Source: an uncultured delta proteobacterium (GTDB lineage: Bacteria > Desulfobacterota > Desulfomonilia > UBA1062). From it: a DNA stretch of 64,000 nucleotides. Below, piece by piece: positions 8,885 through 22,816 of this stretch; the first letter of the stretch is position 1; each line of letters starts with the position of its first letter. The position numbers were made by a program, and so were the translations under genes. The stretch lies in NCBI GenBank assembly GCA_963785235.1, contig CAWAUM010000007.1, positions 96,001-160,000 on the forward strand, in the 5' to 3' direction. Below the pieces are notes generated by a model. It saw only the letters and a list, made by a program, of their open reading frames with translations, did not search any database and had not been told where the DNA came from.

Positions 8885-8901
8885 TTGGCCCGTATCTGGC
8901 A
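8885..8901 (+). promoter_or_regulatory. Putative sigma54 -24/-12 promoter for the GRE cluster
   Basis: TTGGCCCGTATCTGGCA has GG(8887-8888)-N10-GC(8899-8900). It lies 120 nt upstream of the first cluster gene, downstream of a near-palindrome TGCCCATATATTGGCA (8771-8786). Confidence 0.6.
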
Positions 8902-9020
8902 ATCTCTTTTCTGTGACATTGAAAACATCCATGAATTAATTTCGATGAAGGCATTGAGGAGTTTCTACCCGGAAGAAGCACAGGCGATCCTTCAGCAATA
9001 TCATAAAAAGGGAGAAGCAT

Positions 9021-9359
9021 ATGATCCTCGCAACCATTAGGATGGCGATACCACCCCAAAAGCGAGCTGAGGCATTGAAAATCATCAGATTGATAGCTGA
9101 TCGATGCAGTGACGATACCGGCTGTCTCGGGTTCCACCTCTATGAGGACCTGCAGGAAAAAAACGTCATCATGCTCGAAGAGGTCTGGAAGGCCCAGGAA
9201 GACCTGGACCTTCATCTTCGCTCGGACGAATACCACAACCTGCTCATGGTTCTGGAAATGGCAGTCAAACAGCCCGAGATCAGGTTCGACACCATCTCCA
9301 GTTCCACGGGCATCGAGACCATTGAAAAGGCAAGGAGCAATGCGAGACAAATATTCTGA
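9021..9359 (+). CDS. Antibiotic biosynthesis monooxygenase (ABM/YgiN-like) protein
   Basis: 112 aa; GCLGFHLYEDL...MLEEVWKAQEDLDLHLRSDEY pattern of the dimeric alpha-beta barrel ABM family. Confidence 0.8.
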   Translation: MILATIRMAIPPQKRAEALKIIRLIADRCSDDTGCLGFHLYEDLQEKNVIMLEEVWKAQEDLDLHLRSDEYHNLLMVLEMAVKQPEIRFDTISSSTGIETIEKARSNARQIF

Positions 9360-9450
9360 CATCACCCTCCTTGGAGGGGTGGCTGTGGTGAAATTACTTC
9401 ACGTATTTAGCGAAGTGAAAATATAAGTCAATAATAGGAGGAACATCATT

Positions 9451-10647
9451 ATGGCTAAGGAAACAGAGAAGATTAAAGAGACAACTTTCAAAAACACGAA
9501 ACTGAACCTTGTGAAGCTGGATTGGAAAGAGGTTTACTACACCAACTGTCCGCTGGTGTCTGCCAGCAATGTGGATGAAGGCCTGGGCTTGACCAAGAAG
9601 GAGTTCAAGAAGATCGGCGTGAAGTTTGCCTACATGCGTTCGACCCCTGAAACCGATTGGTATCCCCACTACATTCACAATCAGGAAAATCTTATCCGCT
9701 TCGGCGGTTTGTTTCCGCCCATCGAGGTTCACGCGGACATCCGCCGGACCCGGCTGCTGGGGGTTACGCAGATGCCGGCAGAAGGCGGTGTCATGATGGT
9801 GCGCGCCAAGGACGACATCTACCGGATGGTCGATCTGAAGGGCAAGAAGATCGGCATTTCCAAGAGCATGAACAAGATCAAGAACGACTGGTGGCGCATC
9901 CAGGAGCACCAGGGTATCGAGCTCATGCTCCGGATGAACGGCATGACCATGGACGACATCGAGCTCGTCGAGTTCCCTTACGCGGACGACTGGTATAACG
10001 ATCCGGCGATGATGGTCGCAACCATGGACCTCTCGATTGATCTGTGGCTGAAGCGTGACCACAAGCGCGACTTGGCCTTCCGTCCACTGGAAACCGCACT
10101 GGAAAAGAGGATCATCGATGCGATGTACATGCAAACCAAGCCGCTCCAGCAAGTCTCCGAGGCGACGGGCAAGTTCGCGGCGATCGAGGACCTCTCCCGC
10201 TATCCGGACTGGCGTTTGCAGGTCGCCAACATCCCCGCGGCCATTACGTGCACCGACGTCATGGCCAAGCAGCACCCCGAACTCGCCGTCACGTTCATGA
10301 AAGGCATGATCCGCGCCGGGCGCTGGGCCAACGAGAACAAACGCGCCGCGGCGGAAATCCTCGACCAACAGACCTTCTACAGAGACATCGAGCACACCTA
10401 CCAGGGAATCAGGGACGTGGACTTGGTGCCCAACCTGTCACCACTCAACCTGGCTGCTGTCGAGATCGGCAAGAACTTCATGCTGAGCCACGGCTACATC
10501 AAGAACGACTTCGATGTGCAGAAGTGGGCCGCGCCGGAGTTCCTGGAGAAGGCAGCCAGAGAACTGCTGGAAGAAGAATGGAAGAAAAGAACCACAGCAA
10601 AACTTCCCAAGACGGCTGCGCCGCTTACGGGAGAACGGCTCGGGTAG
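9451..10647 (+). CDS. DszB-like protein (desulfinase family; periplasmic-binding-protein fold), no signal peptide
   Basis: YTNCP (C33), PHY (H73), RFGG (R83, G86) and RTRLLGVT..VRAKD....DLKGKKIGIS parallel the DszB motifs YSNCP, H60, R70-FGG and RTRLLGIT. The N-terminus is charged, not a signal peptide. Confidence 0.75.
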   Translation: MAKETEKIKETTFKNTKLNLVKLDWKEVYYTNCPLVSASNVDEGLGLTKKEFKKIGVKFAYMRSTPETDWYPHYIHNQENLIRFGGLFPPIEVHADIRRTRLLGVTQMPAEGGVMMVRAKDDIYRMVDLKGKKIGISKSMNKIKNDWWRIQEHQGIELMLRMNGMTMDDIELVEFPYADDWYNDPAMMVATMDLSIDLWLKRDHKRDLAFRPLETALEKRIIDAMYMQTKPLQQVSEATGKFAAIEDLSRYPDWRLQVANIPAAITCTDVMAKQHPELAVTFMKGMIRAGRWANENKRAAAEILDQQTFYRDIEHTYQGIRDVDLVPNLSPLNLAAVEIGKNFMLSHGYIKNDFDVQKWAAPEFLEKAARELLEEEWKKRTTAKLPKTAAPLTGERLG

Positions 10648-10752
10648 TCGGGAAGACGCTCGGCACAGGGTGCACGTGCGAGGCAACTGAAGAATCAGCC
10701 ATAATCGCCGACCCGGTGAAGCCAAAATAAAACTGATGAAGGAGGAAACATA

Positions 10753-13185
10753 ATGGAAAAGGCAAAGGATGCAAAGAAGATTTCCACAGGCCGCGTCAAG
10801 GCCGACAAAGACCGGATCGACCGGCTGAAAGAACAACTCAGGAGCACCCCTGCCGAGGTTGATTTTGAGCGGATCAGGATCATGGAGGAGGTTTACGCGG
10901 CCACTCAGGGCGACCAGAATATCATGCGTCGAGCCAAGTTCTATGCCACCCTGCTGGAGCGGAAGAAGATCTACATCGACGACAACTGCTTTGTGGGCAG
11001 CATGGCCGGCACCGTCAACGGCATCTACACGTATCCGGAATGGAACATCGATTGGATGAAGGACGATAATACCGTCGAGAAGTGCAAGGATCCGGTGGAC
11101 AAGAAGGCGAACCAGTGGGCACTCGACTACTGGGACAAGCGCGCCCTGAAACCCCGCACCCTGGAGATCTTCGAGAAGAAGTATGGTTTCGATCCGAAAC
11201 CCTGCTATGAGTCCGGCTTTGTCGTCAGTTTCTTTGACTGGCCGGGTGGTGGCGGCAATCTGAACTACCCCCGGATTTACAACCATGGGCTGGCCGCCAT
11301 GATCAAGGAGGTCGAGGAGCGGCAGGCGGCCCTCGACATGCGGCTGCCCAATGCCAGCAAGCTCTACTTCTATGAAGCCAGCCTCATCGTCATGAGGGCC
11401 ATTGTGCGCCTGGCTCATCGCTATGCCGAGCTGGCCCGGGAAATGGCGAAAAAGGAAAAGAATGAAACCCGCAAGGCAGAGCTGATTGCCATCGCCGAAA
11501 CCATGGAACGAGTTCCCGAGCATCCGGCCCGGAACCTGAGAGAGGCCATCCAATGCCACTTCTTCTGTCACATTTGTGCGGAGCTCGAGCAGGTTGGCTG
11601 CGGTTACTCCGAGGCCTATCTGGGCCAGAACCTTGAGCCCTACTATCAACGCGACAAAGCGGCGGGTCTGGTCGATTACGAACAAGCGACGTTCATGTTC
11701 CAGAATCTCGTGATCAAGCTGAACGAGATCGGCTATTACTTTGGAGAGAAGGTCGCCCTGCAGAACTCGGCCGACCTCGGGCAGAGCGTCTCCCTGGGAG
11801 GCTTTACCGAGGATGGGGAGGATGCCACCGCGGAAATGGACTATGTGGTTCTGGATGCATGCAACTATCTCCACCTGCCGCAGCCTCCGCTGACTTGCGT
11901 CTACACGGAGAGGATGAGCGGCAAATTCCTCGAGAAGGTCCTGGATGTCATCGGCACCGGTATCGGCATGCCTCAGTTGGTAAACGGCAATGTGATGATC
12001 AAACGGGCACTCAATCTATTCGGTGACTCCAAAAAGGGCATCACCCTCGAAAAAGCCAGGCGCACCTGCATCGGCGCATGTGTGGGTTCTTACCCCCCCT
12101 ACGAGACCGGTCACCCGGTGGAAGGCCAGCCCAACCTGGGCAAGGTCATCGAGCTGGTGATGAACAATGGCTTCGATCCTCGCACCAAGAAGCAGGTCGG
12201 ACCCAAGACCGGTGATCCCGAGACCTTCAAAACCTTCGAAGAACTCTACGCGGCATTCCAAAAGCAGATCGATTTCAATGAAGAGGTCCTCCGCCGGGGT
12301 GCCTGGATCGCCAGCATGTTGTGCGCCGACTTCCTCCCGGTTCCTTGGCGCTCGCTCCTGACCGGGGGCTGCATTGAAACGGGCACCGAGGTGTGGAACG
12401 GCGGGGCCAATTACTACACCGTTGCCCAGATTGTGGTGGGGGGCATCGACGCGGCCAACTGTCTCATGGCGGTGAAGAAACTGGTCTACGACGACAAGAA
12501 GATCACCATGGCCGAACTCAAGAAAGCCCTGGCCGCCAACTGGGAGGGGGAATACGAGAAGATTCGGAAGCTGTGTTACGAAGCTCCCAAGCACGGCAAC
12601 GACATCCCTGAAATGAACAGGATGGCGTACAGGGTGTACGAAAGCATCTTCAAGGCTTTCAACAATGTTGACGGCGGCGGCAACTACCTCAGCAAAGACA
12701 TCAAATCAGCGCCGGATGCCTATACCAAGAGCATCCACAACCTGATGGGTATGGTGACCGGGGCTCTGCCCAACGGCAAGAGAGCCGGAGTGGCACTCAC
12801 CGATGGAAGTCTGTCGGCCATGCCGGGAACCGATGTCAGCGGTCCTACCGCGTTGGTGATGTCTGCGGCGAAGGCTCAGGATGCCATCAAGTACACCGCA
12901 ACCCACATGAACATGAAACTCCCGCCTGATCAGCTGAAGACACGCAAGGGCCGGGATAATGTGCTGCGTCTGGTCAAAACCCTGTTTGATAACGATGGCT
13001 ATCACATCCAGTTCAACGTCCTGGATACCAACATCCTCAGGGATGCGCAGAAGCACCCGGAAAACTACCGTGACCTCGTGGTCCGGGTAGCCGGTTTCAG
13101 TGCCTTCTTCACCGCACTGGCTAAGGGCGTACAGGACGAGGTCATTGAGCGCACTTTGCAGTCGTTTGACGGTCAGATGTGCTGA
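10753..13185 (+). CDS. Glycyl radical enzyme of unknown function (PFL2/GRE superfamily)
   Basis: C-terminal HPENYRDLVVRVAGFSAFF glycyl-radical loop (G781), HIQFNV, GALPNGKRAG, and Cys loop CIGACVGS (C443). A cognate activase lies downstream. Confidence 0.93.
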   Translation: MEKAKDAKKISTGRVKADKDRIDRLKEQLRSTPAEVDFERIRIMEEVYAATQGDQNIMRRAKFYATLLERKKIYIDDNCFVGSMAGTVNGIYTYPEWNIDWMKDDNTVEKCKDPVDKKANQWALDYWDKRALKPRTLEIFEKKYGFDPKPCYESGFVVSFFDWPGGGGNLNYPRIYNHGLAAMIKEVEERQAALDMRLPNASKLYFYEASLIVMRAIVRLAHRYAELAREMAKKEKNETRKAELIAIAETMERVPEHPARNLREAIQCHFFCHICAELEQVGCGYSEAYLGQNLEPYYQRDKAAGLVDYEQATFMFQNLVIKLNEIGYYFGEKVALQNSADLGQSVSLGGFTEDGEDATAEMDYVVLDACNYLHLPQPPLTCVYTERMSGKFLEKVLDVIGTGIGMPQLVNGNVMIKRALNLFGDSKKGITLEKARRTCIGACVGSYPPYETGHPVEGQPNLGKVIELVMNNGFDPRTKKQVGPKTGDPETFKTFEELYAAFQKQIDFNEEVLRRGAWIASMLCADFLPVPWRSLLTGGCIETGTEVWNGGANYYTVAQIVVGGIDAANCLMAVKKLVYDDKKITMAELKKALAANWEGEYEKIRKLCYEAPKHGNDIPEMNRMAYRVYESIFKAFNNVDGGGNYLSKDIKSAPDAYTKSIHNLMGMVTGALPNGKRAGVALTDGSLSAMPGTDVSGPTALVMSAAKAQDAIKYTATHMNMKLPPDQLKTRKGRDNVLRLVKTLFDNDGYHIQFNVLDTNILRDAQKHPENYRDLVVRVAGFSAFFTALAKGVQDEVIERTLQSFDGQMC

Positions 13186-13314: not shown

Positions 13315-14490
13315 ATGAGTAAAGAAATAGGTCATGCCAGTTTTCAACGACGCATTGCCATCAATGTGGGTGCCGGCTACGTGCCCGGTATAAATGCTGT
13401 GATAATGGGCGCAAGCCTTGCTGCGAACAAACTGGGATGGGAGATAGTCGGCATCATGGACGGGTTTGAGGGGCTGTTGCACCGGCCTAGCTACCCCAAC
13501 GGCGGGCTGGTGTCACTCAGCCCGCAAATGATTGAGAACCTGGATCCGTCTGCCGGGGGAATCCTGGGCCAAGCGTTGCGGATCGATCCGTTTCATGTCC
13601 GTCGCGTAAATGAAGACGACATGGTAGAAGAAGTCGACGTATCCGATGAACTGATTAGAATACTTCAGGACGAGCAGATCGACGCATTGATTTCAGTTGT
13701 TGGGGGTCAAGGATTAAGTATTCTTTATAAGCTCCATCGTAAAGGGCTCAATACGGTTTGCATCCCCAGATCGATTGAGAACGACATCGCTGCCACAGCG
13801 GTCTCCTTCGGGTTCAACAGCGCCCTGAGTTTTACTATCGAAATGCTGGATCGGGCTCTTCAGGCGGCCCGGGCAGCCCGCAAAATCGCGGTAGTGGAGG
13901 TCTTGGGAGAACAGGCCGGTTGGATTGCATTACAGGCCGGCATTGCAGTTTGTGCCGATGTAGTGCTGATTCCCGAAGTTCCCTGCGATCTGAATGCGGT
14001 TGCATCCAGATTGAAAGAAAAGATGCGATTCAGAAATCATTACGGACTTGTGGTGGTGGCCGAAGGGGCGAAGTTTGTCGATAATACGCAAAGCCAGGCG
14101 GATCCCTCCTCCCTGAAAGCTACTCTCTCGCCGCTGGCAACGGGTGAGGCAAGTGAACATGTCATTTCGCAATCAGGCCAGGCCGCCGCGACAGTGGCAA
14201 CCAGGTTGCAGTTACTGATCGCCGAGGAAATCTATCCGCTGGTAATTGGTCCCTGGGTCAGGGGTGGTACCCCCACTGCTGTCGACCGGCAACTGGGGAT
14301 GGCCTACGGCGCCGGAGCCATTCAGGCGCTGAAAGCCGGGAAAAACGGCGCAATGGTTGCTTTTAATCCACCAGCCATCGAATTTCTGCCTTTGGCAGAA
14401 GCGATCAATAAAGTCAGAACGGTGCCCACAGACAGCCTGTTCGTGAAAATCGCCCAATCGCTCGGCATCTTTCTAGGGAGGGAATTATGA
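13315..14490 (+). CDS. 6-phosphofructokinase (PfkA)-fold protein with degenerate catalytic motifs
   Basis: PfkA architecture throughout ([46 protein letters not shown]), but GAGYV, PRSIEND and LGE replace GGD, PKTIDND and MGR. RBS aggagga before ATG 13315. Confidence 0.8.
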
Positions 14491-15450
14491 AAAAACAAAA
14501 CATCAACCCCTCCGATATAACAGGCACAGTGCTGAATATCCAACGATATTGCAGCCACGACGGTCCGGGCATCCGGACAACGGTTTTTCTCAAGGGCTGC
14601 TCTTTGCGCTGCAAATGGTGCGGCAATCCCGAAAGCATTAGCCTGAAGCCGGAAATGTCCTACGACTCCAGGAAGTGCACCGGCAAGAAGTGCGGCCTCT
14701 GCCTGAAGCCGCCGTTTCCTGAAGGCGCCTTCTATTTTGTGGAGGGGGATGATGACCAAAGTAAAAGTCAACTGGCACCTGGCCATGGACATAAATAACG
14801 AACTGGTTTCGCTCTGCCCGACCGGTGCGCTCGAAATGTTCGGCAAACGGATGACCGTCAACGAGGTGCTCGACGAGGTGGAGAAGGATGCCTCCATCTA
14901 CCGCAGTACCGGTGGCGGCATGACGATAAGCGGCGGTGAAGTCATGCTGCAACCCGACTTTGCGGCAGCTTTGCTGCAGGAAGCACACAATCGCGGCCTC
15001 AATACGGCTATAGAAACAGCCTGCAATGCGCCATGGTCCTTCCTTGAAAAAGTACTTCCCCACGTGGATACGATGCTTCACGACAACAAACTGATGAATT
15101 CGGAACGGCACAAAAAGTGGACCGGCGTAGGCAATGAAAGAATTCTGGCGAACTTCAAAAAAGCCTACGAAACGTTCCCCCATGTGGAGTTTATTACCCG
15201 CACACCGCTGATTCCCGGCGTAAACGCCGATGAAGAGCACGTCCGGGCCGTGCTGGCATTCATCAAGCCATATAAAAACGTGATCGACTATGAGCTCTTG
15301 CCCTATCACCGCTTTGGTCTGGGCAAGTATGAACTGTTGGGAGAGGTGTATGAACTGGATGATTACAAAACGCCGTCTGCCGACCTGGTCGCGCACCTGC
15401 AGGCCATCATCGACGAAGCCTTTGGCCGCAGCGGGCCGCAAACAAAATAG
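14487..15450 (+). CDS. Glycyl-radical enzyme activating enzyme (radical SAM), frameshift near 14750
   Basis: [26 protein letters not shown] (CxxxCxxC), a ferredoxin-like insert, [15 protein letters not shown] and LLPYH. Pieces at 14487..14798 and 14737..15450. Confidence 0.92.
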
Positions 15451-15463: not shown

Positions 15464-16720
15464 ATGGCCAGACAGAAAGAGAAAAAAAGCATGAAAACTG
15501 AAGGCCGCCAAACACCTCCGAAGAAGCCGGGAGCCGGGAACGGTTCGGGCCGGACAGATGACATTTACGAGCGCCTGGCGGACGCGCTGGACGCGCTTCC
15601 GAGTGGCTTTCCCAGGACGAAATCCGGGGTGGAAATGAAACTGATCAAGATGGCGTTTACGCCCGAGGAGGTAGCCCTTGCCGGTCAGTTGACCCGCTTT
15701 CCCGAGACCGCTGCCGAGATCGCCAAACGGGTCGGCATGGATGAGGCTGACGTAACCGTGTTGTGCGAGAGCTTGATCCCCAGGCGCCTGGTACGTCTCG
15801 ACTCGCCCGGGTATGACATGGCCGGTCAAGATCAGGGTGATGGGGCGAAGAAGTACCGGCTGGGCATGTTCCTGGTTGGCTGGTATGAAGCCAATATGCG
15901 GCTGCTGGGTAAGGAATTTGCCGAGCTCTTCGAGCAATATGTTATTGAAGGCGGCGGTGAAAGAATACTTGCTCCTCGGCCTGGGGTTCTTGGTGTTGTT
16001 CCCGTTCGGGGGTCACTATCGCCAGAACAGATCAAAGTGATGGAACCCCATCTTGATATCGACGCGCATTTCAAACGGCACGAACGATTTGTTGTGTTTG
16101 GCTGCGTATGTAAAAGGGAGCAGGAATTATTGCATGGCCACAGCTGCGATATGCCGATGAAACGCTGCGGTTTTGTAGGCGTCCCACCCCAGACGCCACT
16201 TTCGGAAAACGTGCTTGACCGGGAAGAGGCGGACAAGCTTCTTCGTGAACTGGAGGACATGGGACACGTTCACCTCGCGGCCTATGGATACGTCATGGGC
16301 GCGGAGACTCCTCAGTTTGTCGGAGGGTGTAACTGCTGCGGCTGTTGTTGCGGGGTCCTTCACAGCCAGAAACTCTCCGGCATTTCGGAAGCGGCACAGC
16401 GTTCGAACTACCGCGCCGTCATTGATTCGGAAAAATGCATTTCCTGCGGTCTGTGCATCAAGCGTTGCCCGGTGGACGCCATCTTCGAGGGCCCGAAGCG
16501 CTTGCCCACAGGGCCTCTCTGTGCGGCCGTGGAATTGGAGCCCGGCAAGTCCGAGGTGGACCGGGCCAAGTGCATCGGCTGCGGCGTGTGCGTGATCAAA
16601 TGCCCGACGAATGCGATCGAACTTGTGCCGGTATCGAAAGAAGAATGGTTCCATACTCCTGCCAGCATGGCGGAATGGGAAGAGATGCGCCTTGCGTTTC
16701 TGGCAGCGGAAAAGAAGTAA
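15464..16720 (+). CDS. Multi-Cys 4Fe-4S binding protein with N-terminal HTH-like region
   Basis: GCVCK, GCNCCGCCC, CISCGLCIKRCP and CIGCGVCVIKCP motifs; RBS aaagga. Confidence 0.85.
   Translation: MARQKEKKSMKTEGRQTPPKKPGAGNGSGRTDDIYERLADALDALPSGFPRTKSGVEMKLIKMAFTPEEVALAGQLTRFPETAAEIAKRVGMDEADVTVLCESLIPRRLVRLDSPGYDMAGQDQGDGAKKYRLGMFLVGWYEANMRLLGKEFAELFEQYVIEGGGERILAPRPGVLGVVPVRGSLSPEQIKVMEPHLDIDAHFKRHERFVVFGCVCKREQELLHGHSCDMPMKRCGFVGVPPQTPLSENVLDREEADKLLRELEDMGHVHLAAYGYVMGAETPQFVGGCNCCGCCCGVLHSQKLSGISEAAQRSNYRAVIDSEKCISCGLCIKRCPVDAIFEGPKRLPTGPLCAAVELEPGKSEVDRAKCIGCGVCVIKCPTNAIELVPVSKEEWFHTPASMAEWEEMRLAFLAAEKK
16613..16689 (+). repeat. 77-bp direct repeat copy 1 (FeS protein 3' region)
   Basis: Matches 19408..19484 with 3 mismatches; weaker similarity extends upstream to about 16541/19336. 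Confidence 0.85.
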
Positions 16721-16787: not shown

Positions 16788-18089
16788 ATGAACACAACCG
16801 ACTTGATTACGGCGGAAGTACTGGCCGGGCGGCTCAAGATGGCCGCCGAAGGCATCAAGCAGAAGCCCGGCTTAATGAAGTCCGCCATAGGCTATATGGA
16901 ACTGGTTTATAAGTACGTGGAGCGGATCGTGACGGCCAAAGAAAAGGGCAAATATGTGGTTACCCATGGCACCCAGCAGCCCCTCGAAATTTACGAAGCT
17001 ATGGACATCGTGTGCCTCTTCAACGAGTTCTGGGGTGTCATCTCGGATGTCGTGAACACGGATTCCGTCCCCGCGGCCATGAATATTTCGGCTTCGACCG
17101 GCACACCGCAGGAGGTCTGCTCCTTCTTCCGGAACATGGACGGCCTGCTGCATGCCGGGAAGTGGCCGCATACGGACATGTTTGTCTACGCCACCTCCTC
17201 GTGCGATAACGTTAAGGCGTTCCACACGCTGGGCCGGCGATACGGCATCCCCAGTTTCGGCATGGAGCGGCCCTATTACCCGTTCACACCCCATGCGATG
17301 GAACACTGGAAGAACGAGCACAAGCGTTTGATCGCCTTCCTGGAAGAGCAGACGGGGAAGAGGATGGACTATGACCGTCTCAATGAGACGTTACGCCTCT
17401 CTTACCGTCTTACCGAGATCGCCTGCGAGATCGACAAGCTGGTAGCCCATGTCCCAACTCCCATGTCCCCCGAATGCTTTGGGGGAGTACTGCTGGCGAT
17501 CCGCCTGATGTGCGGGACCCAGGAGGCTGTGGACTACCTGGAATCGCTGAAGGCGGAACTCGAGGAACGGGTGTCCAAGGGCATCGCCGCCGTCGAGCCG
17601 GAACGCTTCCGGGTGATGTGGAGCAGTTTCACCCCGTTCTGGGACCCGGGAATCATGGCCTTCATGCAGGAGAAGTACGGAGCGGTCTCGGTGTGCGAGG
17701 TGCTGCAGCGCTGGCGCGGGGAGGCGAACTGGATGCTGGATCCGGATGATCCGTTGGGCAACCTCGCTTACAAAACTCAGGTCGCACCCGGAAACTGTCA
17801 ATACTCGCCCTCCTTAGATTGGGCCGGGGAAGTCGTCGCGCAGGCCCGCAAATACAAGCCGGACGTGGCGATCTTCAACAACAACCGGGGCTGCAAGCAG
17901 GCTGCGGGCTTGGAACCAATCATCAGGGACGAGCTGCTGCGTCAATGCGGCGTGCCGACCCTCACGCTTGCCGTGGATGTGATTGATGCAACTTTTACCA
18001 GCCGGGCAGAGGTCGAAAGGCAGTTGGACGGCTTTTTTGAAATGATCGAGGGAAGCGAAGCTTACCAGGAAAGGAGGGCAAACGCATGA
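16788..18089 (+). CDS. 2-hydroxyacyl-CoA dehydratase / class I benzoyl-CoA reductase family subunit (alpha-type)
   Basis: EVCSFFR, SSCDNVK and RGCKQ cluster cysteines; LIAFLEEQTGKRMDYDRL; GVPTLTL..D. Confidence 0.85.
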   Translation: MNTTDLITAEVLAGRLKMAAEGIKQKPGLMKSAIGYMELVYKYVERIVTAKEKGKYVVTHGTQQPLEIYEAMDIVCLFNEFWGVISDVVNTDSVPAAMNISASTGTPQEVCSFFRNMDGLLHAGKWPHTDMFVYATSSCDNVKAFHTLGRRYGIPSFGMERPYYPFTPHAMEHWKNEHKRLIAFLEEQTGKRMDYDRLNETLRLSYRLTEIACEIDKLVAHVPTPMSPECFGGVLLAIRLMCGTQEAVDYLESLKAELEERVSKGIAAVEPERFRVMWSSFTPFWDPGIMAFMQEKYGAVSVCEVLQRWRGEANWMLDPDDPLGNLAYKTQVAPGNCQYSPSLDWAGEVVAQARKYKPDVAIFNNNRGCKQAAGLEPIIRDELLRQCGVPTLTLAVDVIDATFTSRAEVERQLDGFFEMIEGSEAYQERRANA

Positions 18090-19231
18090 ACCCCCAACTG
18101 CAAGTTCTGAACGAAATGCGGAAAGCGACCTCTCCATTCCCGGAGAGCGTAACCGTCAAGGACTGGAAAGCCTCTGGCCGAAAGGTGATCGGCTGTGTCA
18201 ACCCCTACGTCCCGGAGGAGATCATCCACGCGGCCGGGATGCTTCCATTCAAGATCACCGGTGACAACGAGCCGGTCGAGATGCAGGGGGCCGAGGCCTA
18301 CATCCTCTCCAATACCTGCTCCTACATTCGCACCTGCTGGCAGCTGCAGCTCGACGGCAAGTACGGTTTCCTGGACGGCCTGGTCTTCTCCAACATGTGC
18401 GACCAGGATAAGCGGCTGTACAGCGTGTGGGAGTACTATAAGAAGCTTCCCTACATGGACATCCTCTACGCGCCGCGCAAGCGCGACGAGGAGGCTGTCA
18501 AGCTGTACCTGGCCGATCTCGAGGACTTCAGGGACAGGTTCTCGCTGTACCGGCTGAGCAGGATCACCGACCGGGACGTCGCGGACGCCATCCGCGTCTA
18601 CAACCGGGGACGTGAGCTCATGCATCGTCTCTACGAACTGCGCAAGCGTGATCGCCCACCTGTGACAGGTGCCGAGGCCCTGGAAGTAAGCAAGGCTGCC
18701 GCACGCCTGCCGCGTGAGCGTTTCAACGAGCTGATGGAGCAACTGCTTGACGAGATCCAGCGCACCGGGCGCGAGATCAAGAAGGCCAGGCGCCTGATGG
18801 TCATCGGCAACGATATTCACAACACCAACCAGGTCGCCGCGTTCGAGGAAATGGACGCGCTGGTCGTCGTGGACGAGATGAATTGCGGCATCCGGCAAGC
18901 CCTGGGCCAGGTGGACACCAAGATGCCGCCGATGGAGGCTCTGGCCCGCTACTACGTGATGGGCCGTCCGGTCGACATGCACAACTGGAATTCCGACGGG
19001 CGACTCGCGTTCATTGGCCAGATGGTTGAACAATACAGGGTTGACGGGATTGTGTCCGAGATCGTTCGCTTCTGCACCTACAACGGCTGGGACAAGTTCG
19101 ATCTCAAGAAGCAGATGGAACAGCGCGGCATTCCCATCCTGGATATCGACCTCGAGTACGGCCATCCGGCTGGAGCGCAGGTGAAGACCCGCGCCGAGGC
19201 GTTCATGGAGATGCTGGAAAGCCGAGCCTGA
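18086..19231 (+). CDS. 2-hydroxyacyl-CoA dehydratase / benzoyl-CoA reductase family subunit (beta-type)
   Basis: PYVPEEIIHAAG, NTCSYIR, NMCDQ, RFCT and QVKTRAEAFMEML; ATGA overlap with the preceding gene. Confidence 0.88.
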   Translation: MNPQLQVLNEMRKATSPFPESVTVKDWKASGRKVIGCVNPYVPEEIIHAAGMLPFKITGDNEPVEMQGAEAYILSNTCSYIRTCWQLQLDGKYGFLDGLVFSNMCDQDKRLYSVWEYYKKLPYMDILYAPRKRDEEAVKLYLADLEDFRDRFSLYRLSRITDRDVADAIRVYNRGRELMHRLYELRKRDRPPVTGAEALEVSKAAARLPRERFNELMEQLLDEIQRTGREIKKARRLMVIGNDIHNTNQVAAFEEMDALVVVDEMNCGIRQALGQVDTKMPPMEALARYYVMGRPVDMHNWNSDGRLAFIGQMVEQYRVDGIVSEIVRFCTYNGWDKFDLKKQMEQRGIPILDIDLEYGHPAGAQVKTRAEAFMEMLESRA

Positions 19232-19295
19232 TTTGCAGCAAACACCTCATGACCACGGGTCTGACGAGGCGCAAAAAAGCAGAAGGAGAATTGAA

Positions 19296-19512
19296 ATGGC
19301 AAAGTTAGACGTGAAATTCATTGCCGGAAATGAGGCCCGCCAAGTCAGAAGTGATTCGGGACAAGTGCATCGGCTGCGGGGTCTGCGTGACGGGTTGCCC
19401 AGAGGAGGCGATCGAACTTGTGCCTGTATCGAAAGAAGAATGGTTCCATACTCCCGCCAGCATGGCGGAATGGGAAGAGTTGCGACTGCAGAATATGGCA
19501 TCGAAAAAGTAA
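19296..19512 (+). CDS. Small single-motif 4Fe-4S protein paralogous to the C-terminus of 15464..16720 (one indel near 19326), or a gene remnant
   Basis: RBS gaaggag plus ATG at 19296 gives MAKLDVKFIA. After removing one base it continues EMRPAKSEVIRDKCIGCGVCVTGCPEEAIELVPVSKEEWFHTPASMAEWEE. Confidence 0.6.
19408..19484 (+). repeat. 77-bp direct repeat copy 2
   Basis: gcgatcgaacttgtgcctgtatcgaaagaagaatggttccatactcccgccagcatggcggaatgggaagagttgcg compared with 16613..16689. Confidence 0.85.
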
Positions 19513-19597: not shown

Positions 19598-21284
19598 ATG
19601 AAAGTAATAATTGTCGGCGGAGTGGCGGGTGGCGCGTCGTGTGCGGCGCGCCTGCGGAGATTGGATGAAAAGGCGGAAATACTCATGGTGGAACGCGGGC
19701 CGTATGTCTCCTACGCGAACTGCGGGCTTCCCTACCATATCAGCGGCGTGATCGAAAAAGAGGCATGCCTCCTGGTGGCCACGGAAGCGACGTTCCGTGA
19801 GCAGTTCGCAGTGGATTGCCGCACGAACTGCGAGGCGGTCGGGATTGATGCGAAAAAGAAGACCGTGGAGCTGAAGAACCACGCCACCGGCGAGGTGTCC
19901 ACCGAGCACTACGACAAGCTCGTGCTTTCTCCCGGGTCGGCGCCGATCCGTCCGCCACTGCCGGGTATCGACCTCCCGGGGATCTTTTCGGTGCGGACCG
20001 TGCCGGACGCCCGAGACATACGCGCCTGGATTGGACGCAACGACGTGCCGGACCATTCGGAAACAGGCTACCAGGCCGTGACGCCAGCCAAGCGCGCGGT
20101 GGTGATCGGCGGCGGATTCATCGGACTTGAGATGGCCGAGAACCTGGTGCACCTCGGGCTCGAGGTCACCGTGGTTGAGATGCTCGATCAGGTCATGCCC
20201 CCGCTTGATCCGGAAATGGCACGCCTGGTCGAGTCCCACCTGGAGAAGCATGGTGTCCGCCTGGCGCTGGGCGACGCGGTGGCCGGCTTCAGGCAGGCGG
20301 AGCATGGTTCGCTCGAGGTGCTCACGAAATCAGGGAAAACGCATCCGGCGGACATCGTGATCATGGCCATCGGTGTGCGTCCTGAGACTGAGCTGGCAAA
20401 GATGGCCGCCATCGAGATCGGGGAGCGCGGGGGGATCCGCGTGGACGAGCATATGCGCACGAGCGACCCGGATATTTTCGCCGTGGGAGATGCCGTCGAG
20501 GTAAGGGATTTCGTTACAGGCCAGTGGTCGCTCATCCCGCTTGCAGGGCCTGCGAACCGTCAGGGCCGCATCGCGGCTGATGTGATCGTCGGGCGCGACT
20601 CGCGTTACCGGGGCACGCAGGGCACTTCCATCTGTCTCGTCTTCGATGCAGCGGTGGCCTCGACCGGAGTCAGTGAAAAGATCCTTATCAGACTGGGCGA
20701 CACGGATTACGAAAAGATCTATCTCTACCCGAACTCGCACGCAGGGTATTACCCGGGCGCCAAGCTGCTCGCAATAAAAGTCCTGTTCCGGAAATCCGAC
20801 GGCCGTCTCCTGGGCGCGCAGGTGCTCGGCCAGGACGGCGTTACCAAGCGGATCGATTCCTTTGCCATGGCTATCCAGATGGGATGCACCATTTACGACC
20901 TGGAAGAGGCCGAGCTGAGCTACGCGCCCCCGTTCGGCAGCGCCAAGGACCCGGTCAACTTCGCCGGGATGGTGGCCGCTAATATCTTGCGCGGCGACAT
21001 GCCGGTGTGCCCACTGGGATGCGGCGCAGGGAGGGTTCCTCCTCGATGTGCGCAATCCGCCCGAACTGGCCGTTGAGCAGGCGCCGGGTGTGGTCAACAT
21101 ACCGCTGCCGGAGCTCCGTGCACGCCTGGGCGAGCTGCCCCGCGAGCGCGAGATTTTCGTGATCTGCCGCTCGGCCCAGCGCGCCTACTATGCGACGCGC
21201 ATCCTGCTGCAGAACGGGTTCAAGGCCCGCAACATCTCCGGCGGCATGCTGGTGCGTTCGCACCTGGCGGTGGGATGGAAATAA
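19598..21284 (+). CDS. CoA-disulfide/persulfide reductase with C-terminal rhodanese domain, frameshift near 21010
   Basis: GGVAGGASCAARLRR, SYANCGLPY redox Cys, GGGFIGLE, YYPGA, YAPPFGSAKDPVN; rhodanese domain VICRSAQRAY in the next frame. Confidence 0.9.
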
Positions 21285-21307
21285 ATAGTGAACGCAAGGA
21301 GCACAAT

Positions 21308-21817
21308 ATGACTGAACAAAATCTTCCCAAAGGAAAACAGACGGTGCTGGGGCTCTATGTGACGGCAAAGGAGGCCTACGAGAAGTGGAAGGCCGAGCCG
21401 GACAGGGTGATGATCCTCGACGTACGCACACCGGAAGAGTACCTCTTCATCGGCCACCCGGCCATGGCCTGGAAGATCCCCATCGCGGCCCAGGAGTATG
21501 AGTGGGACGCCGGCAAGGGGAAGTTCCCCATGAAGCTCCTCACCGATTTCGTTGAGCGGGTGAGCTCCGTGGCCGGGCCAGATGACACGATCCTCGTCAC
21601 GTGTCGCTCCGGCGGCCGCAGCGCCATTGCCGCCAACCTGCTTGCCCAGGCCGGGTACAAGAAGGTCTACAACATCATCGACGGCGTGGAAGGGGACGCG
21701 GTTGAAGATCCTGACAGCGTCTTCCTGGGTCAGCGCCTGAAGAACGGATGGAAGAACTCGGGATGTCCGTGGACATACAAGCTCACGCCCGACAGACTGC
21801 TGCTTCCAAAAGCATGA
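21308..21817 (+). CDS. Rhodanese-like sulfurtransferase
   Basis: ILDVRTPEEY..IGH, active-site loop CRSGGRS, YNIIDGVEG, GWKNSGCPW. Confidence 0.88.
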   Translation: MTEQNLPKGKQTVLGLYVTAKEAYEKWKAEPDRVMILDVRTPEEYLFIGHPAMAWKIPIAAQEYEWDAGKGKFPMKLLTDFVERVSSVAGPDDTILVTCRSGGRSAIAANLLAQAGYKKVYNIIDGVEGDAVEDPDSVFLGQRLKNGWKNSGCPWTYKLTPDRLLLPKA

Positions 21818-21941
21818 TAGGCGGGCTTGCAGGAGGGACAACAACTTGAAAGGAAAGGGACCATGAGCGATGTAAGGCAGTTCCTTCAGCCCACAGGCCA
21901 TTTAACAGCAATGCATTTTATAATTTGAAAGGAAAAAGATT

Positions 21942-22816
21942 ATGGACATTATGACTTGGTTCAACATCACAGTGGTCGTGTTTACCGTGGCTAATCTGAT
22001 GGCCGGGGGCCTTGAGTGCGATCTGAAAGAAGCGGTCAAGTTGTTGAAAAGCCCCACGCTCTTCGTGCCGACCCTTTTTTGGGGCTGGGTGGCCGGGCCG
22101 GCCCTTGCCTGGCTGATCATCCAAGTGCTTCCGCTGTCGGCGGGACATGCCGCCGGGCTGATGTTGTGCAGCTTGGCGCCCATTGCGCCGTTCCTGCCGC
22201 TGGCGGCGATGAAGGCCCGTGGCGACATGACCTTCACCGGAGCCTACATCCTGCTGGGGACGGTCGTTACCGTCTTGTTGATGCCGCTGATGGCACCTCT
22301 GCTGATCAAGGGGCTGACCTTGAGCACCTGGCCGCTCGCGAAGCCGCTCATCATATTGGTGCTGATTCCTTTGCTGCTTGGCATTGTCATCCGGTTTTAC
22401 AAGCCGGCAGTGGCCGCCAAGATATTTAAACCGGTCAAGAAAACCGGCGGCATCTTCCTGCTGCTCTGCCTGGGGACGTGCCTGTGGATCTACGGCATGC
22501 AAATGCTCGGCACGGTGGGCAGCTTTGCCACGGCCGCTTGGGTCATCTTCATGGTCGTGATGGCCGTGCTGCCGTATCTGATTGGCTTCGGCATGAAACA
22601 GAATCAGCGCAGCGTCATGGCAATCGGCCAGAGCTCGCGGAATATTTCGGCCGGGTTCGTGGCGTTCTTTGGTATTACCAACCCGCCCGAGGGGATGTTC
22701 CTGATGGTTGTGCTGGTGGTTCCGCTGCACGTCATCATCGGGCTCTTATCGGTGCCGCCCATATTCGCCAGGCTGGCCGGCAAGACCGTGAAACCGCTGA
22801 GGAAGTTGCGGCATGA
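21942..22816 (+). CDS. Bile acid:sodium symporter (BASS/SBF)-family transporter; frameshift near 22790
   Basis: About 9 hydrophobic helices; LAPIAPFLP..AMKARGD and SSRNISA motifs. The probable true end is ...ETAEEVAA* at 22816. Confidence 0.75.

What the first reader, a model, noticed from the sequence alone, without database searches (positions are those of the whole stretch)
8885..22816. Candidate undescribed pathway: sigma54-driven glycyl radical enzyme cluster with a DszB-like desulfinase, a kinase-degenerate PFK fold, a dehydratase/reductase pair and a persulfide relay
Seen in the sequence: a co-oriented, tightly spaced run behind a GG-N10-GC promoter. The order is ABM protein, DszB-like protein, GRE, PfkA-fold protein, GRE activase, poly-FeS protein, HgdAB/BcrBC-type pair, mini FeS protein, CoADR-rhodanese, rhodanese, BASS transporter. 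Known: DszB cleaves an aryl sulfinate C-S bond in the aerobic 4S pathway; some GREs (IslA/IseG, HpsG) cleave C-S bonds and others decarboxylate arylacetates; CoADR-rhodanese fusions reduce persulfides. I know of no characterised GRE locus with this partner set. Inference: an anaerobic radical route for an organosulfur or aromatic anion, imported by the BASS carrier, attacked by the GRE and desulfinase, with sulfur handled by rhodanese/CoADR. The substrate cannot be read from the sequence.
Basis: partly seen in the sequence, partly recalled or inferred. Interest (0 to 1): 0.9.

Follow-up and report, generated by a model that had tools for sequence, protein, structure and literature searches.

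The report
Orphan glycyl-radical enzyme sulfur island
This is a real, apparently undescribed oxygen-sensitive radical enzyme that always travels with a disabled sugar-kinase look-alike and its activator, usually beside sulfur-handling genes, and has spread between many phyla of sediment and soil bacteria.

Summary
The genes are there, in the stated order, on one strand. Corrections: the activase and the CoADR-rhodanese gene each carry a one-base frameshift. The 'mini FeS protein' is a 184-nt repeat of the FeS gene's 3' end, and the two copies bracket the HgdAB-like pair. The run continues past 22816 to about 28500.

The GRE belongs to no curated GRE family, and its Cys loop reads C-V-G instead of CXE. 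In 68 close loci (74-97% identity, at least 11 phylum-level labels), GRE, pseudo-PFK and activase stand together in 39 of 39 loci with full flanks. At least one of DszB-like, CoADR, its rhodanese domain or the free rhodanese lies within 10 kb in 32 of 39. The HgdAB pair occurs in 2 of 68.

The DszB-like protein's only solved relative is DszB, by sequence and by fold. Activase plus pseudo-PFK gave weak complex support.

I found no paper describing this system. This scan has met the same family before on other DNA.

Best reading: a mobile anaerobic organosulfur island whose substrate is unknown.

The parts
4900..7777 (+). Sigma54 enhancer-binding activator (PAS, AAA+ sigma54 domain, HTH_8). The N-terminal sensory part, 4900-5484, lies in another frame.
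   Evidence: Pfam. ORF 4900-5484 matches residues 80-263 of the 904-aa activator of L008 at 58% identity.
7922..8592 (+). Phd/YefM antitoxin plus PIN toxin pair, lying between the activator and the promoter. Not part of the conserved island.
   Evidence: Pfam. Found in 0 of 68 relatives' loci.
8886..8901 (+). Putative sigma54 -24/-12 promoter, TGGCCC-N5-TGGCA, 120 nt upstream of the ABM start codon.
   Evidence: A like site stands in a similar position in 14 of 15 relatives' loci.
9021..9359 (+). ABM-domain protein. It is the first gene behind the promoter and travels with the sigma54 activator in relatives.
   Evidence: Pfam PF03992, E 1.9e-11. Synteny. An ABM cluster occurs in 10 loci.
9451..10647 (+). 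DszB-like cytoplasmic protein of the periplasmic-binding-protein fold. No signal peptide is evident by reading the N-terminus. Candidate desulfinase or sulfinate/sulfonate-binding enzyme.
   Evidence: The only PDB sequence hits with E at or below 0.001 are DszB. Best Foldseek hit is DszB 2de2, E 1.9e-19. C33, H73 and R83 are invariant in 23 sequences.
10753..13185 (+). Glycyl radical enzyme of an uncharacterised subfamily. Cys loop TCIGACVGS, Gly loop RVAGFS.
   Evidence: Pfam. Alignment to HypD. 470 of 810 positions are at least 97% conserved in 41 sequences.
13315..14490 (+). Pseudo-phosphofructokinase (PfkA fold with kinase motifs lost). The start may instead be 13243.
   Evidence: Pfam PF00365. 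Alignment to PFK 1zxx. Family alignment A1.
14487..15450 (+). GRE activating enzyme (radical SAM), split by one extra base at about 14754-14756. Reduced ferredoxin insert.
15464..16720 (+). Fe-S protein: an unassigned N-terminal domain, a Cys run (CNCCGCCC) and two 4Fe-4S ferredoxin motifs.
   Evidence: Pfam Fer4 families. Present in 25 of 39 full-flank loci. The Atlas gives no named relatives.
16788..19231 (+). Two HGD-D family genes (HgdAB/BcrBC/double-cubane type). A lineage-specific insert.
   Evidence: Pfam. NCBIfam scores below cut-offs. Present in 2 of 68 loci. No BcrAD activator nearby.
19321..19512 (+).
   Evidence: 184-nt direct repeat, 82% identical. 75% protein identity to residues 357-417 of the FeS protein.
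19598..21284 (+). CoA-disulfide-reductase-like flavoprotein fused to a C-terminal rhodanese domain, split by one extra base at about 21008-21012.
   Evidence: Pfam. NCBIfam TIGR03385: 461 bits against a cut-off of 578.8. Intact fusion in L010..
21275..21817 (+). Single-domain rhodanese with a CRSGGRS loop.
   Evidence: Pfam PF00581, E 3.8e-14. Sequence.
21942..22816 (+). SBF/BASS-family anion transporter. The 282-aa core is intact. The 3' end is uncertain because the frame reads on to 23486.
   Evidence: Pfam PF01758. Compared with relatives' 263-294-aa proteins.
22813..23757 (+). Putative outer-membrane channel. No Pfam match.
   Evidence: Atlas: 'transporter family' clusters, one of them with PF13557 on 11% of members, which is a lead only. 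Present in 14 of 39 loci.
23783..28498 (+). GH63/MGH1-like hydrolase, Zn-ADH with a Glu_dehyd_C domain, and a split MIP channel. An optional sugar-side module of the island.
   Evidence: Pfam. GH63 in 12 of 39 and the ADH in 11 of 39 loci. The MIP gene lies in two frames.

Best explanation
The stretch is one copy of a horizontally spread anaerobic gene island.

Core. The fixed core has three genes: a glycyl radical enzyme of an uncharacterised subfamily, a catalytically dead phosphofructokinase-fold protein, and the radical-SAM activase. I infer that the pseudo-PFK is a structural partner of the activase, and in other loci also of the ferredoxin-type Fe-S proteins. The activase has lost one of its two auxiliary-cluster motifs. 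The Fe-S protein probably supplies low-potential electrons.

Chemistry. The GRE lacks the Glu of the CXE motif, so it probably does not work as an acid/base-assisted 1,2-eliminase. I infer a base-independent radical cleavage of an anionic organosulfur compound.

Optional modules around the core point to sulfur:
- an outer-membrane channel and a BASS (elsewhere SulP) transporter for uptake or export;
- a cytoplasmic DszB-like protein that binds, and probably hydrolyses, a sulfinate or sulfonate group to give sulfite;
- a rhodanese and a CoADR-rhodanese fusion that take sulfane sulfur and reduce it to sulfide with NAD(P)H.

Expression here is probably sigma54-dependent. The HgdAB-like pair is a recent add-on in this lineage.

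Shown: gene identities, motif losses, co-occurrence, cross-phylum spread. Inferred: the partnership with the activase, the sulfur substrate, the order of steps.
For: - Core constancy: GRE, PFK and activase stand together in 39 of 39 full-flank loci; PFK is present in 64 of 68 close loci overall.
- Conservation and spread: 74-97% identity across at least 11 phylum-level labels. Several loci lie on contigs of 1.4-6 Mb (L003, L008, L027, L058, L070), and L029 is from a cultured isolate. On the tree, the 7 phylum groups it tabulates need 14 changes where 6 is the minimum. The GRE was not found in 14 of 14 other species of the same genus.
- Dead kinase: GGD becomes AGY, GGDGS becomes GGQGL, TIDND becomes SIEND, MGR becomes LGE. 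No Asp stands at the GGDG position in 25 of 25 sequences.
- Activase: only 4 invariant auxiliary cysteines in 22 sequences. Activases of the distant GREs L060 and L071, which have no PFK, keep two full clusters.
- Activase plus pseudo-PFK complex: weak support. ipSAE 0.50 (runs 0.54, 0.36, 0.50) against a best control of 0.00; at least 64% of contacts shared between runs; partner pLDDT at least 81. In the tool's calibration the mark was reached by 58 of 80 solved complexes and 2 of 110 mismatched pairs. At 0.60 or under it was reached by only 7 of those 80 solved complexes and by both passing mismatches.
- Gene order: in L008 the order is GRE-FeS-PFK-activase, so the PFK stays with the activase. 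At least two PFK copies occur in 15 of 39 loci, next to FeS genes.
- Sulfur link: at least one of DszB-like, CoADR, its rhodanese domain or the free rhodanese within 10 kb in 32 of 39 loci, and at least 2 of DszB-like, CoADR and free rhodanese in 22 of 39. They lie on the GRE's strand in 22 of 22, 25 of 26 and 12 of 12 cases.
- DszB likeness. The next structural neighbours are sulfonate-binding SsuA proteins.
- Cys loop: C-V-G aligned to C-V-E of HypD. CXE is kept by all eliminases and isomerases (review PMC13450708, sections 5.6.1, 5.6.3 and 5.7, read).
- A second GRE clade (L062, 49% identity) has the same partners.
Against: - No substrate or activity is known.
- 7 of 39 full-flank loci show none of the sulfur genes within 10 kb.
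- Module order differs even between close relatives. L054 has DszB-like at the far end and CoADR upstream. The island could therefore hold several independent operons.
- The complex prediction is only weak support, and the tool says a pass at this level is 'more often wrong than right unless the guess was likely beforehand'.
- The Cys27 equivalent of DszB was not aligned by HMMER.
- The structure model is of moderate confidence (mean pLDDT 71.5).
- GH63, Zn-ADH and MIP neighbours in about a third of loci point to a sugar-derived substrate that the sulfinate idea does not explain.
- In this window the activase and CoADR-rhodanese frames are broken, so this copy may be inactive if the frameshifts are real.
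Confidence: 0.55

Rival explanations
1. Sulfosugar or sulfonate catabolism. The GRE is a sulfite-releasing C-S lyase in the manner of IslA/IseG/HpsG, acting on a sulfoquinovose-derived sulfonate. GH63 would act as glycosidase, the Zn-ADH as sugar dehydrogenase, BASS as sulfonate or sulfite carrier, and the rhodanese and CoADR genes as sulfite and sulfane detoxifiers.
For: GH63 occurs in 12 of 39 and the Zn-ADH in 11 of 39 loci, at 60-89% identity across phyla. Here they lie on the same strand directly after the outer-membrane protein, followed by a MIP channel. SsuA sulfonate binders are the next structural neighbours of the DszB-like protein. The HpsG equivalog is among the better GRE family scores (413 bits).
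Against: The Glu of CXE, which hydrogen-bonds the substrate hydroxyl in all three C-S lyases (PMC13450708 section 5.6.3), is Gly here and in all 41 family members. The HpsG score of 413 is far below its cut-off of 1000. GH63 and the ADH are both present in only 7 of 39 loci. The Arg/Gln/Arg sulfonate anchor could not be checked.
Confidence: 0.2
2. A mosaic island of functionally separate modules. The GRE core serves some sulfur-free fermentative or hydrocarbon reaction. The reactive-sulfur genes (CoADR-rhodanese, rhodanese, DszB-like) are an independent sulfide- or sulfite-stress cassette that merely co-travels with it.
For: Module order is shuffled between loci, even at 96-97% GRE identity. 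7 of 39 loci have no sulfur gene within 10 kb. From my own recall, not checked in any call: CoADR-rhodanese plus rhodanese cassettes are known as stand-alone sulfide-stress operons in Firmicutes.
Against: Co-occurrence in 32 of 39 loci across many phyla, and almost always on the GRE's strand. The 49%-identical GRE clade in L062 keeps DszB-like, rhodanese and BASS. Distant GRE loci fetched by the same scan (L060, L071, L073-L075) have none of them.
Confidence: 0.15
3. Aromatic-acid decarboxylation or hydrocarbon activation followed by HgdAB/Bcr-type ring or acyl-CoA chemistry.
For: The genome is rich in GRE paralogues and in HGD-D/BcrAD genes. An HGD-D pair sits inside this copy.
Against: The HGD-D pair occurs in 2 of 68 loci. 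It is bracketed by a repeat and has no activator ATPase within 100 kb. No small subunit ORFs lie beside the GRE. Family scores against cut-offs: indoleacetate decarboxylase 420 vs 1100, HPAD 367 vs 1150, BssD activase 116 vs 496. No CoA-ligase or beta-oxidation genes recur.
Confidence: 0.04
4. In this genome the cluster is a decaying pseudogene array. On this view the frameshifts in the activator, activase, CoADR-rhodanese, BASS end and MIP genes are real.
For: Five frame disruptions in about 24 kb.
Against: All are single frame slips with no in-frame stops. Both halves of each gene remain highly similar to relatives. The assembly has 13 contigs for 3.9 Mb, and other GRE paralogues in it are also split, as expected of long-read indel errors. 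Short-read-derived contigs from three sediment runs lack the extra base in the activase, although they may come from related strains.
Confidence: 0.15

Closest known systems
trans-4-hydroxy-L-proline dehydratase HypD (PDB 6VXC) and the other PFL2-type GRE 1,2-eliminases and isomerases
   Same: Best solved relative (E 1.3e-119, full-length alignment). Same PFL-like barrel, Gly loop RVAG, Cys loop position, and a dedicated radical-SAM activase of the PFLE_PFLC subfamily.
   Different: The Glu of CXE is replaced by Gly, and a second Cys lies four residues upstream. The HypD equivalog scores 488 against a cut-off of 1100. The gene context is different.
C-S cleaving GREs IslA/IseG and HpsG with their activases
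   Same: A GRE beside sulfur-related genes and anion transporters. The activase's best equivalog match is the HpsH-type activase (236 bits).
   Different: No CXE. Scores far below cut-offs: GRE 413 vs 1000, activase 236 vs 430. Those loci are not described with a PFK-fold partner, DszB-like protein or CoADR-rhodanese. The review PMC13450708 has no occurrence of 'phosphofructokinase' or 'rhodanese'.
Multisubunit GREs (HPAD gamma; BSS beta/gamma; MASS beta/gamma/delta)
   Same: A GRE system with an obligatory extra protein encoded between or beside the GRE and activase genes.
   Different: The known accessory subunits are small HiPIP-like or rubredoxin-like Fe proteins that bind the GRE (PMC13450708 section 4.2). 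Here the partner is a protein of about 390 aa with the PfkA fold, no cluster motif, and a predicted (weak) contact with the activase.
DszB, 2'-hydroxybiphenyl-2-sulfinate desulfinase of the aerobic 4S pathway (PDB 2DE2/2DE3)
   Same: The only solved sequence relative (E 1.2e-12 for the single sequence, 3.5e-11 for the profile) and the best fold match. The His60 and Arg70 equivalents are aligned and invariant. No signal peptide is evident by reading the N-terminus, as expected of an enzyme rather than a transporter subunit. No ABC genes recur nearby.
   Different: About 22% identity. Set in an anaerobic GRE context without DszA or DszC. The equivalence to Cys27 is not aligned. The substrate is unknown.
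CoADR-rhodanese fusions (CoA persulfide / polysulfide reductases) with free rhodaneses
   Same: Pyr_redox_2 plus dimerisation domain plus C-terminal rhodanese with a CRS-Q-R loop, followed by a single-domain rhodanese.
   Different: TIGR03385 scores 461 against a cut-off of 578.8. Here the gene is embedded in a GRE island and is frameshifted in this assembly.

Membership tests
Glycyl radical enzyme superfamily (PFL-like branch) | PFL-like barrel domain plus C-terminal glycine-radical domain with an RVxG Gly loop | tested here: met
   PF02901, E 4.5e-145, and PF01228, E 3.6e-27. 'VVRVAGFSAFF' is invariant in the family.
Glycyl radical enzyme superfamily (PFL-like branch) | Catalytic Cys on the Cys loop and a cognate radical-SAM activase | tested here: met
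   The Cys of 'GACVG' aligns with HypD 'SGCVE'. The activase C-terminal part scores 214.9 against the TIGR02494 cut-off of 174.35. The activase frame is broken in this assembly.
GRE 1,2-eliminases and isomerases (GD, PD, HypD, CutC, IslA/IseG, HpsG, HplG, YbiW, PflD) | [quoted passage not shown] | tested here: not met
   C-V-G here, conserved in 41 of 41 family sequences. The motif is defined in PMC13450708 sections 5.6.1, 5.6.3 and 5.7.
C-S lyase GREs (IslA/IseG/HpsG) | Arg/Gln/Arg triad that anchors the sulfonate | not tested
   No residue-level alignment to 7KQ3, 5YMR or 6LON could be obtained with the tools. The HpsG equivalog scores 413 against 1000.
Formate lyases (PFL, TdcE) | Two adjacent cysteines on the Cys loop | tested here: not met
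   The loop is C-I-G-A-C, so the two cysteines are not adjacent. TIGR01255 scores 86.8 against 994.
X-succinate synthases | Alpha-beta-gamma architecture with small Fe-S subunits, and a BssD-type activase | tested here: not met
   No ORF of 60 aa or more lies in the GRE-PFK or PFK-activase gaps. TIGR04003 scores 115.7 against 496.
GRE arylacetate decarboxylases (HPAD, IAD, PAD, AAD) | Equivalog-level similarity. For HPAD also the Glu505 equivalent and a gamma subunit. | tested here: not met
   NF033718 scores 420 against 1100 and NF033715 scores 367 against 1150. Gly stands at Cys+2. No small subunit gene is present.
ATP- or PPi-dependent phosphofructokinase (PfkA family) | PfkA fold | tested here: met
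   PF00365, E 2.7e-60, covering positions 1-277 of 277.
ATP- or PPi-dependent phosphofructokinase (PfkA family) | Catalytic and substrate motifs: GGD(A/S)PG, GGDG, (T)IDND, MGR, GH.QRGG | tested here: not met
   AGYVPG, GGQG, SIEND, LGE and GPWVRGG, aligned to PFK 1zxx. The same losses appear in 25 of 25 family members, although some have D in SIDND. All PFK equivalogs score below their cut-offs. The naming of these motifs as catalytic is from recall.
DszB desulfinase | DszB/SsuA-type two-lobed fold | tested here: met
   Foldseek ranks 1-3 are DszB (E 1.9e-19, TM 0.57-0.66), followed by SsuA proteins. Model mean pLDDT is 71.5.
DszB desulfinase | His60 and Arg70 (sulfinate-binding and catalytic residues; their roles are recalled) | tested here: met
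   DszB H60 and R70, in 'HF...YTRFGG', align to window H73 and R83. Both are invariant in 23 sequences.
DszB desulfinase | Catalytic Cys27 | tested here: inconclusive
   An invariant Cys33 (TNCP) lies 40 residues before the His, against 33 in DszB. HMMER did not align this stretch. That C27 matters is shown only by the title of 2DE3, 'C27S mutant'.
CoADR-rhodanese persulfide/polysulfide reductase | Flavoprotein disulfide reductase domains plus a C-terminal rhodanese with an active-site Cys | tested here: met
   Pfam. A 'CRSAQR' loop is visible in the second frame. An intact 569-aa fusion exists in L010.
CoADR-rhodanese persulfide/polysulfide reductase | CoA-disulfide reductase equivalog score | tested here: not met
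   TIGR03385 scores 461.2 against a cut-off of 578.8.
2-hydroxyacyl-CoA dehydratase / benzoyl-CoA reductase / double-cubane reductase (HGD-D) | An HGD-D pair together with an ATP-dependent BcrAD_BadFG activator | tested here: not met
   Both HGD-D domains are present. All equivalogs score below cut-off. The genome has 15 BcrAD matches over the family cut-off, but the nearest on this contig is at C7:272125, more than 110 kb beyond the cluster.
BASS transporters | SBF domain, and the bass subfamily score | tested here: inconclusive
   PF01758 scores 60.3 against 24.3, which is met. TIGR00841 scores 27.2 against 326, which is not met.

The most novel reading that the evidence does not exclude
Two linked novelties.

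1. The pseudo-phosphofructokinase is a new class of accessory subunit for GRE activation. It would bind the activase, and paralogues would bind the ferredoxin-type Fe-S proteins, in place of a lost auxiliary cluster domain.

2. The Glu-less GRE carries out a base-independent radical fragmentation of an organosulfur anion, for example beta-scission of a sulfone or cleavage of a thiosulfonate-type compound. This would yield a sulfinate that the DszB-like hydrolase converts to sulfite plus a hydrocarbon or alcohol, while rhodanese and CoADR-rhodanese dispose of sulfane sulfur.

Together these would be the first anaerobic desulfination route, and the first use of DszB-type chemistry outside the aerobic 4S pathway.
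Probability: 0.15. Interest if true: 0.9.

Novelty: new variant of a known kind. Interest (0 to 1): 0.77.

Why it matters
GREs are a small set of enzymes that do chemically hard reactions without oxygen, and each new subfamily has so far brought new chemistry.

This one is unusually conserved: 470 of 810 positions are at least 97% identical in 41 sequences. It has moved between at least 11 phylum-level groups of sediment, soil, lake and wastewater bacteria. That suggests a common and ecologically relevant substrate, probably in the sulfur cycle of anoxic freshwater habitats.

Its obligatory PFK-fold partner would be a new kind of GRE accessory protein. The 2026 review of the field lists only small Fe proteins as accessory subunits.

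One cultured carrier is available for experiments: Flavihumibacter profundi KCTC 62290, locus L029.

Tried and rejected
- Sigma54 consensus scan of the window alone: 37 matches against 33.5 expected, so not informative. I replaced it with the positional comparison in relatives.
- Sigma70 and terminator scans inside the run: not above shuffles (6 vs 8.1; 21 vs 19.0). They give no evidence for or against internal units.
- tRNA scan for an integration site: 0 genes.
- Profile search of the DszB-like family against the PDB, meant to align Cys27: the N-terminal stretch still did not align.
- Atlas look-ups of the outer-membrane protein and of the Fe-S protein's N-terminal part: only unnamed or generic clusters.
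- Word searches of earlier findings with six or four words: nothing, or only partial matches.
- RNA run X23: only short contigs of 137-427 nt, with 2-21 differences each, lie on the PFK, FeS, HgdB, CoADR and BASS genes. The tool warns that DNA can be present in such a library, so I do not count this as expression.
- A contig joint 15434 to 19296 in run X5 would skip FeS plus HgdAB. It has only 26 letters on one side, so I do not rely on it.
- No indel rows appeared at the CoADR slip in the laid runs. The tool says this does not show that the sequences are the same there.
- A GRE plus pseudo-PFK complex could not be sent: 810 + 391 residues exceed the 1000-residue limit, and I did not want to cut the barrel.
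- The idea that the PFK fold binds a sugar phosphate or sulfosugar in the canonical site: I consider this unlikely because the MGR Arg and the His of GH.QRGG are also lost.
- Arsenic-resistance reading of the SBF transporter: no ACR3 family match at E up to 0.001.

Full report
**What is in the window.**
From 9021 to about 28500 the + strand carries an unbroken co-oriented run.
- ABM 9021-9359
- a DszB-like protein 9451-10647
- a GRE 10753-13185
- a PfkA-fold protein 13315-14490
- a GRE activase 14487-15450
- a Fer4 protein with a Cys run 15464-16720
- two HGD-D genes 16788-19231
- a small Fer4 ORF 19321-19512
- a CoADR-like flavoprotein with a C-terminal rhodanese 19598-21284
- a rhodanese 21275-21817
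- an SBF/BASS transporter from 21942

Upstream lie a sigma54 activator (4900/5414-7777) and an inserted Phd/PIN pair.

**Corrections to the observation.**
- The activase lies in two frames. The window has one extra base at about 14754-14756 compared with 4 of 4 relatives. Contigs in 3 of 3 sediment DNA runs laid on it also lack that base (table 4).
- The CoADR-rhodanese fusion is split by one extra base at about 21008-21012 compared with 3 of 3 aligned relatives, of 4 offered. The fusion is intact in L010.
- The activator's N-terminal part, the BASS 3' end and the MIP gene also change frame.
- That makes five single-frame slips in about 24 kb, with no in-frame stops. The assembly has 13 contigs for 3.9 Mb, and other GRE paralogues in it are also split. 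I read these slips as long-read indel errors (about 0.8 against 0.15 for real decay), but I could not prove it.
- The 'mini FeS protein' is a 184-nt direct repeat (82% identical) of the FeS gene's 3' end. The two copies bracket the HGD-D pair. It is a recombination scar, not a separate small ferredoxin.

**Promoter.**
TGGCCC-N5-TGGCA at 8886-8901 is not significant on its own. I scanned the DNA after the activator gene and before the GRE, at most 900 nt, in 15 relatives' loci where the activator lies upstream. A GG-N10-GC site with at most 3 mismatches is present in 14 of 15, and with at most 2 mismatches in 6 of 15. In most it lies 120-260 nt after the activator's stop, with up to 370 nt in L045. 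My rough estimate is about 0.05 chance sites with at most 2 mismatches per 900 nt. Sigma54 control is therefore plausible, though transcription was not shown.

**The GRE.**
Its best solved relative is HypD (6VXC, E 1.3e-119). In that alignment the catalytic Cys lines up, but HypD's C-V-E is C-V-G here, and a second Cys lies four residues upstream. The 2026 review of the field (PMC13450708; I read sections 4.2, 5.4, 5.5, 5.6.1, 5.6.3 and 7, plus passages from 5.3 and 5.7) makes three relevant points:
- all eliminases and isomerases keep CXE;
- only PFL and TdcE have two cysteines, and those are adjacent;
- the C-S lyases add an Arg/Gln/Arg anchor.

Every curated GRE equivalog scores far below its cut-off, for example HypD 488 against 1100, IAD 420 against 1100 and HpsG 413 against 1000. 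The enzyme therefore belongs to the superfamily but to none of its described classes.

**Spread.**
A scan of one genome per species returned 75 distinct loci. Of these, 68 carry a GRE at least 70% identical, under labels from at least 11 phylum-level groups. Several lie on contigs of 1.4-6 Mb, and one is from a cultured isolate, Flavihumibacter profundi (L029).
- In 41 intact sequences, 470 of 810 positions are at least 97% conserved.
- On a FastTree of 43 rows, the 7 phylum groups it tabulates need 14 changes where 6 is the minimum. MAG binning and submitter taxonomy are caveats.
- None of 14 other species of the window's genus has it at E up to 1e-100. One of 30 relatives has only a 32% paralogue.

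This is a horizontally moving island.

I ran tblastn with the window's proteins against all loci and tallied hits at 35% identity or more and 40% coverage or more. In the 39 close loci with at least 8 kb on both sides:

| Gene | Loci of 39 |
|---|---|
| PFK | 39 |
| activase | 39 |
| CoADR | 26 |
| FeS | 25 |
| DszB-like | 22 |
| BASS | 22 |
| outer-membrane protein | 14 |
| sigma54 activator | 14 |
| rhodanese domain of the fusion | 13 |
| free rhodanese | 12 |
| GH63 | 12 |
| Zn-ADH | 11 |
| ABM | 5 (an ABM ORF cluster occurs in 10 loci) |
| HgdA / HgdB | 1 |
| Phd / PIN | 0 |

- At least one of DszB-like, CoADR, its rhodanese domain or the free rhodanese lies within 10 kb in 32 of 39 loci, and none in 7. 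Almost all are on the GRE's strand.
- Distant GRE loci caught by the same scan (L060, L071, L073-L075) have none of these partners. A 49%-identical GRE (L062) has PFK, activase, DszB-like, rhodanese and BASS.
- Order is not fixed. L054, with 97% GRE identity, has CoADR upstream and DszB-like at the far end.
- Other recurrent neighbours are LuxR-type regulators and a 180-aa unknown protein in Bacteroidota loci, and MetK in 7 loci, plus a SulP carrier in L010.

**The pseudo-PFK.**
Aligned to a real PFK (1zxx), GGD becomes AGY, GGDGS becomes GGQGL, TIDND becomes SIEND, MGR becomes LGE, and GH.QRGG becomes GPWVRGG. The same losses hold in 25 of 25 family members, although five keep Asp in SIDND. 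The genome holds this single copy plus two ordinary 30%-identical PFK homologues.

The partnered activases keep the radical-SAM CX3CX2C motif but have only four invariant auxiliary cysteines. Activases of GREs without a PFK partner (L060, L071) keep two full CX2CX2CX3C motifs (a small sample).

In L008 the FeS gene is inserted between GRE and PFK, while the PFK stays next to the activase. In 15 of 39 loci extra PFK paralogues sit beside FeS genes.

A complex prediction of the L010 activase with its PFK-like neighbour gave weak support:
- ipSAE 0.50 (runs 0.54, 0.36, 0.50) against a best control of 0.00;
- at least 64% of contacts shared between runs; partner pLDDT at least 81;
- by the tool's calibration the mark was reached by 58 of 80 solved complexes and 2 of 110 mismatched pairs, but at 0.60 or under by only 7 of those 80 and by both passing mismatches.

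I take the pseudo-PFK to be an activation-side partner (about 0.5), not a metabolic kinase (under 0.05).

**The DszB-like protein.**
At E up to 0.001 its only solved relatives by sequence are the DszB entries, both for the single sequence and for a 23-sequence profile. An AlphaFold model (mean pLDDT 71.5) finds DszB first (E 1.9e-19, TM 0.57-0.66), then SsuA sulfonate binders, Thi5 and TauA. DszB His60 and Arg70 align to invariant H73 and R83. An invariant Cys33 lies where Cys27 would be expected but was not aligned. No signal peptide is evident by reading the N-terminus, and no ABC partner genes recur. So it is likely a cytoplasmic protein that recognises a sulfinate or sulfonate group. Enzymatic desulfination is inferred.

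**The HGD-D pair.**
It occurs in 2 of 68 loci (L043, L054). In L054 it is 96% identical at the DNA level together with the FeS gene. In L043 it precedes the FeS gene. The genome has 15 BcrAD_BadFG matches over the family cut-off, usually near other HGD-D loci, but none within 100 kb of this pair. It is a lineage-specific addition, not part of the unit.

**Mechanism (inferred).**
- The activase, with the pseudo-PFK and electrons from the FeS protein, installs the glycyl radical.
- The Glu-less GRE cleaves an imported organosulfur anion by radical chemistry that needs no general base.
- A sulfinate or sulfonate product or substrate is handled by the DszB-like protein, giving sulfite.
- Sulfane sulfur passes through the rhodaneses to the CoADR-rhodanese reductase.
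- The GH63, Zn-ADH and MIP module in a third of loci hints that the substrate may derive from a glycoside, possibly a sulfosugar. This is the main rival and cannot be excluded.

**Literature.**
- No paper holds 'glycyl radical enzyme' together with 'DszB', or 'glycyl radical' together with 'phosphofructokinase-like'.
- 'Glycyl radical' with 'desulfinase' gives one unrelated paper, judged from the listing only.
- The three-term search, and the first 40 listed of the 207 GRE papers from 2025 onward, showed nothing matching, judged from listings and abstracts.
- The 2026 review has 0 occurrences of 'phosphofructokinase' or 'rhodanese', and it states that many GRE clades remain unannotated.
- Subscription-only papers and supplementary files were not searchable.

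**Earlier notes of this scan.**
The same family was reported on at least seven other genomes, with the same general reading. Those notes are not independent evidence. They add that pseudo-PFK plus activase also accompanies other GRE subfamilies. My L062 result agrees with that in part.

**Verdict.**
This is a real, intact-in-nature, undescribed GRE system. The substrate is unknown.

Noticed in passing
window 4900-5484 and 5414-7777: The sigma54 activator seems to be one gene of about 960 aa in two frames. The upstream ORF matches the N-terminal sensory repeats of relatives' activators, for example residues 80-263 of a 904-aa protein in L008.
   Followed up: partly
window 7922-8592: A Phd/YefM-PIN toxin-antitoxin pair lies between the activator gene and its putative target promoter. 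It is absent from all 68 related loci, so it is a local insertion.
   Followed up: partly
window 23783-28498: GH63 (MGH1-like) hydrolase, a Zn-ADH with a Glu_dehyd_C domain, and a MIP channel split into two frames (27640-28200 and 28028-28498) follow on the same strand. GH63 and the ADH recur beside the GRE in about a third of relatives, at 60-89% identity across phyla.
   Followed up: partly
window 21942-23486: The BASS reading frame has no stop after its conserved core (about residue 282) and runs on through the next gene in another frame. Relatives stop 10-12 residues after the core.
   Followed up: partly
L060 (Desulfosarcina alkanivorans), 5578-8001 and 9953-12376: Two tandem GRE paralogues, 47-49% identical to the window's GRE. 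They are also Glu-less (Cys loop AGCVTT), have a sigma54 activator and a canonical two-cluster activase, and have no PFK-like gene. This is a sister family in a cultured strain.
   Followed up: partly
L029 15270-16451 and 6 other loci: An S-adenosylmethionine synthetase gene (MetK) sits next to the GRE core in 7 loci, including the isolate Flavihumibacter profundi.
   Followed up: no
L026 9263-9805 and 12 other Bacteroidota loci: A conserved 180-aa protein of unknown family lies directly upstream of the GRE, where the window has ABM and the DszB-like gene.
   Followed up: no
own genome G000, contigs C1, C7, C9, C12, C13: The genome holds about seven further GRE loci, each around 30% identical to this one, several of them split into pieces. 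It also holds 15 BcrAD_BadFG activator matches over the family cut-off, near other HGD-D genes. This is an anaerobe unusually rich in radical enzymes.
   Followed up: no
window 15434 to 19296 (run X5): One metagenome contig joins these two places, which would skip the FeS gene and the HGD-D pair. Only 26 letters lie on one side, so the evidence is weak.
   Followed up: no
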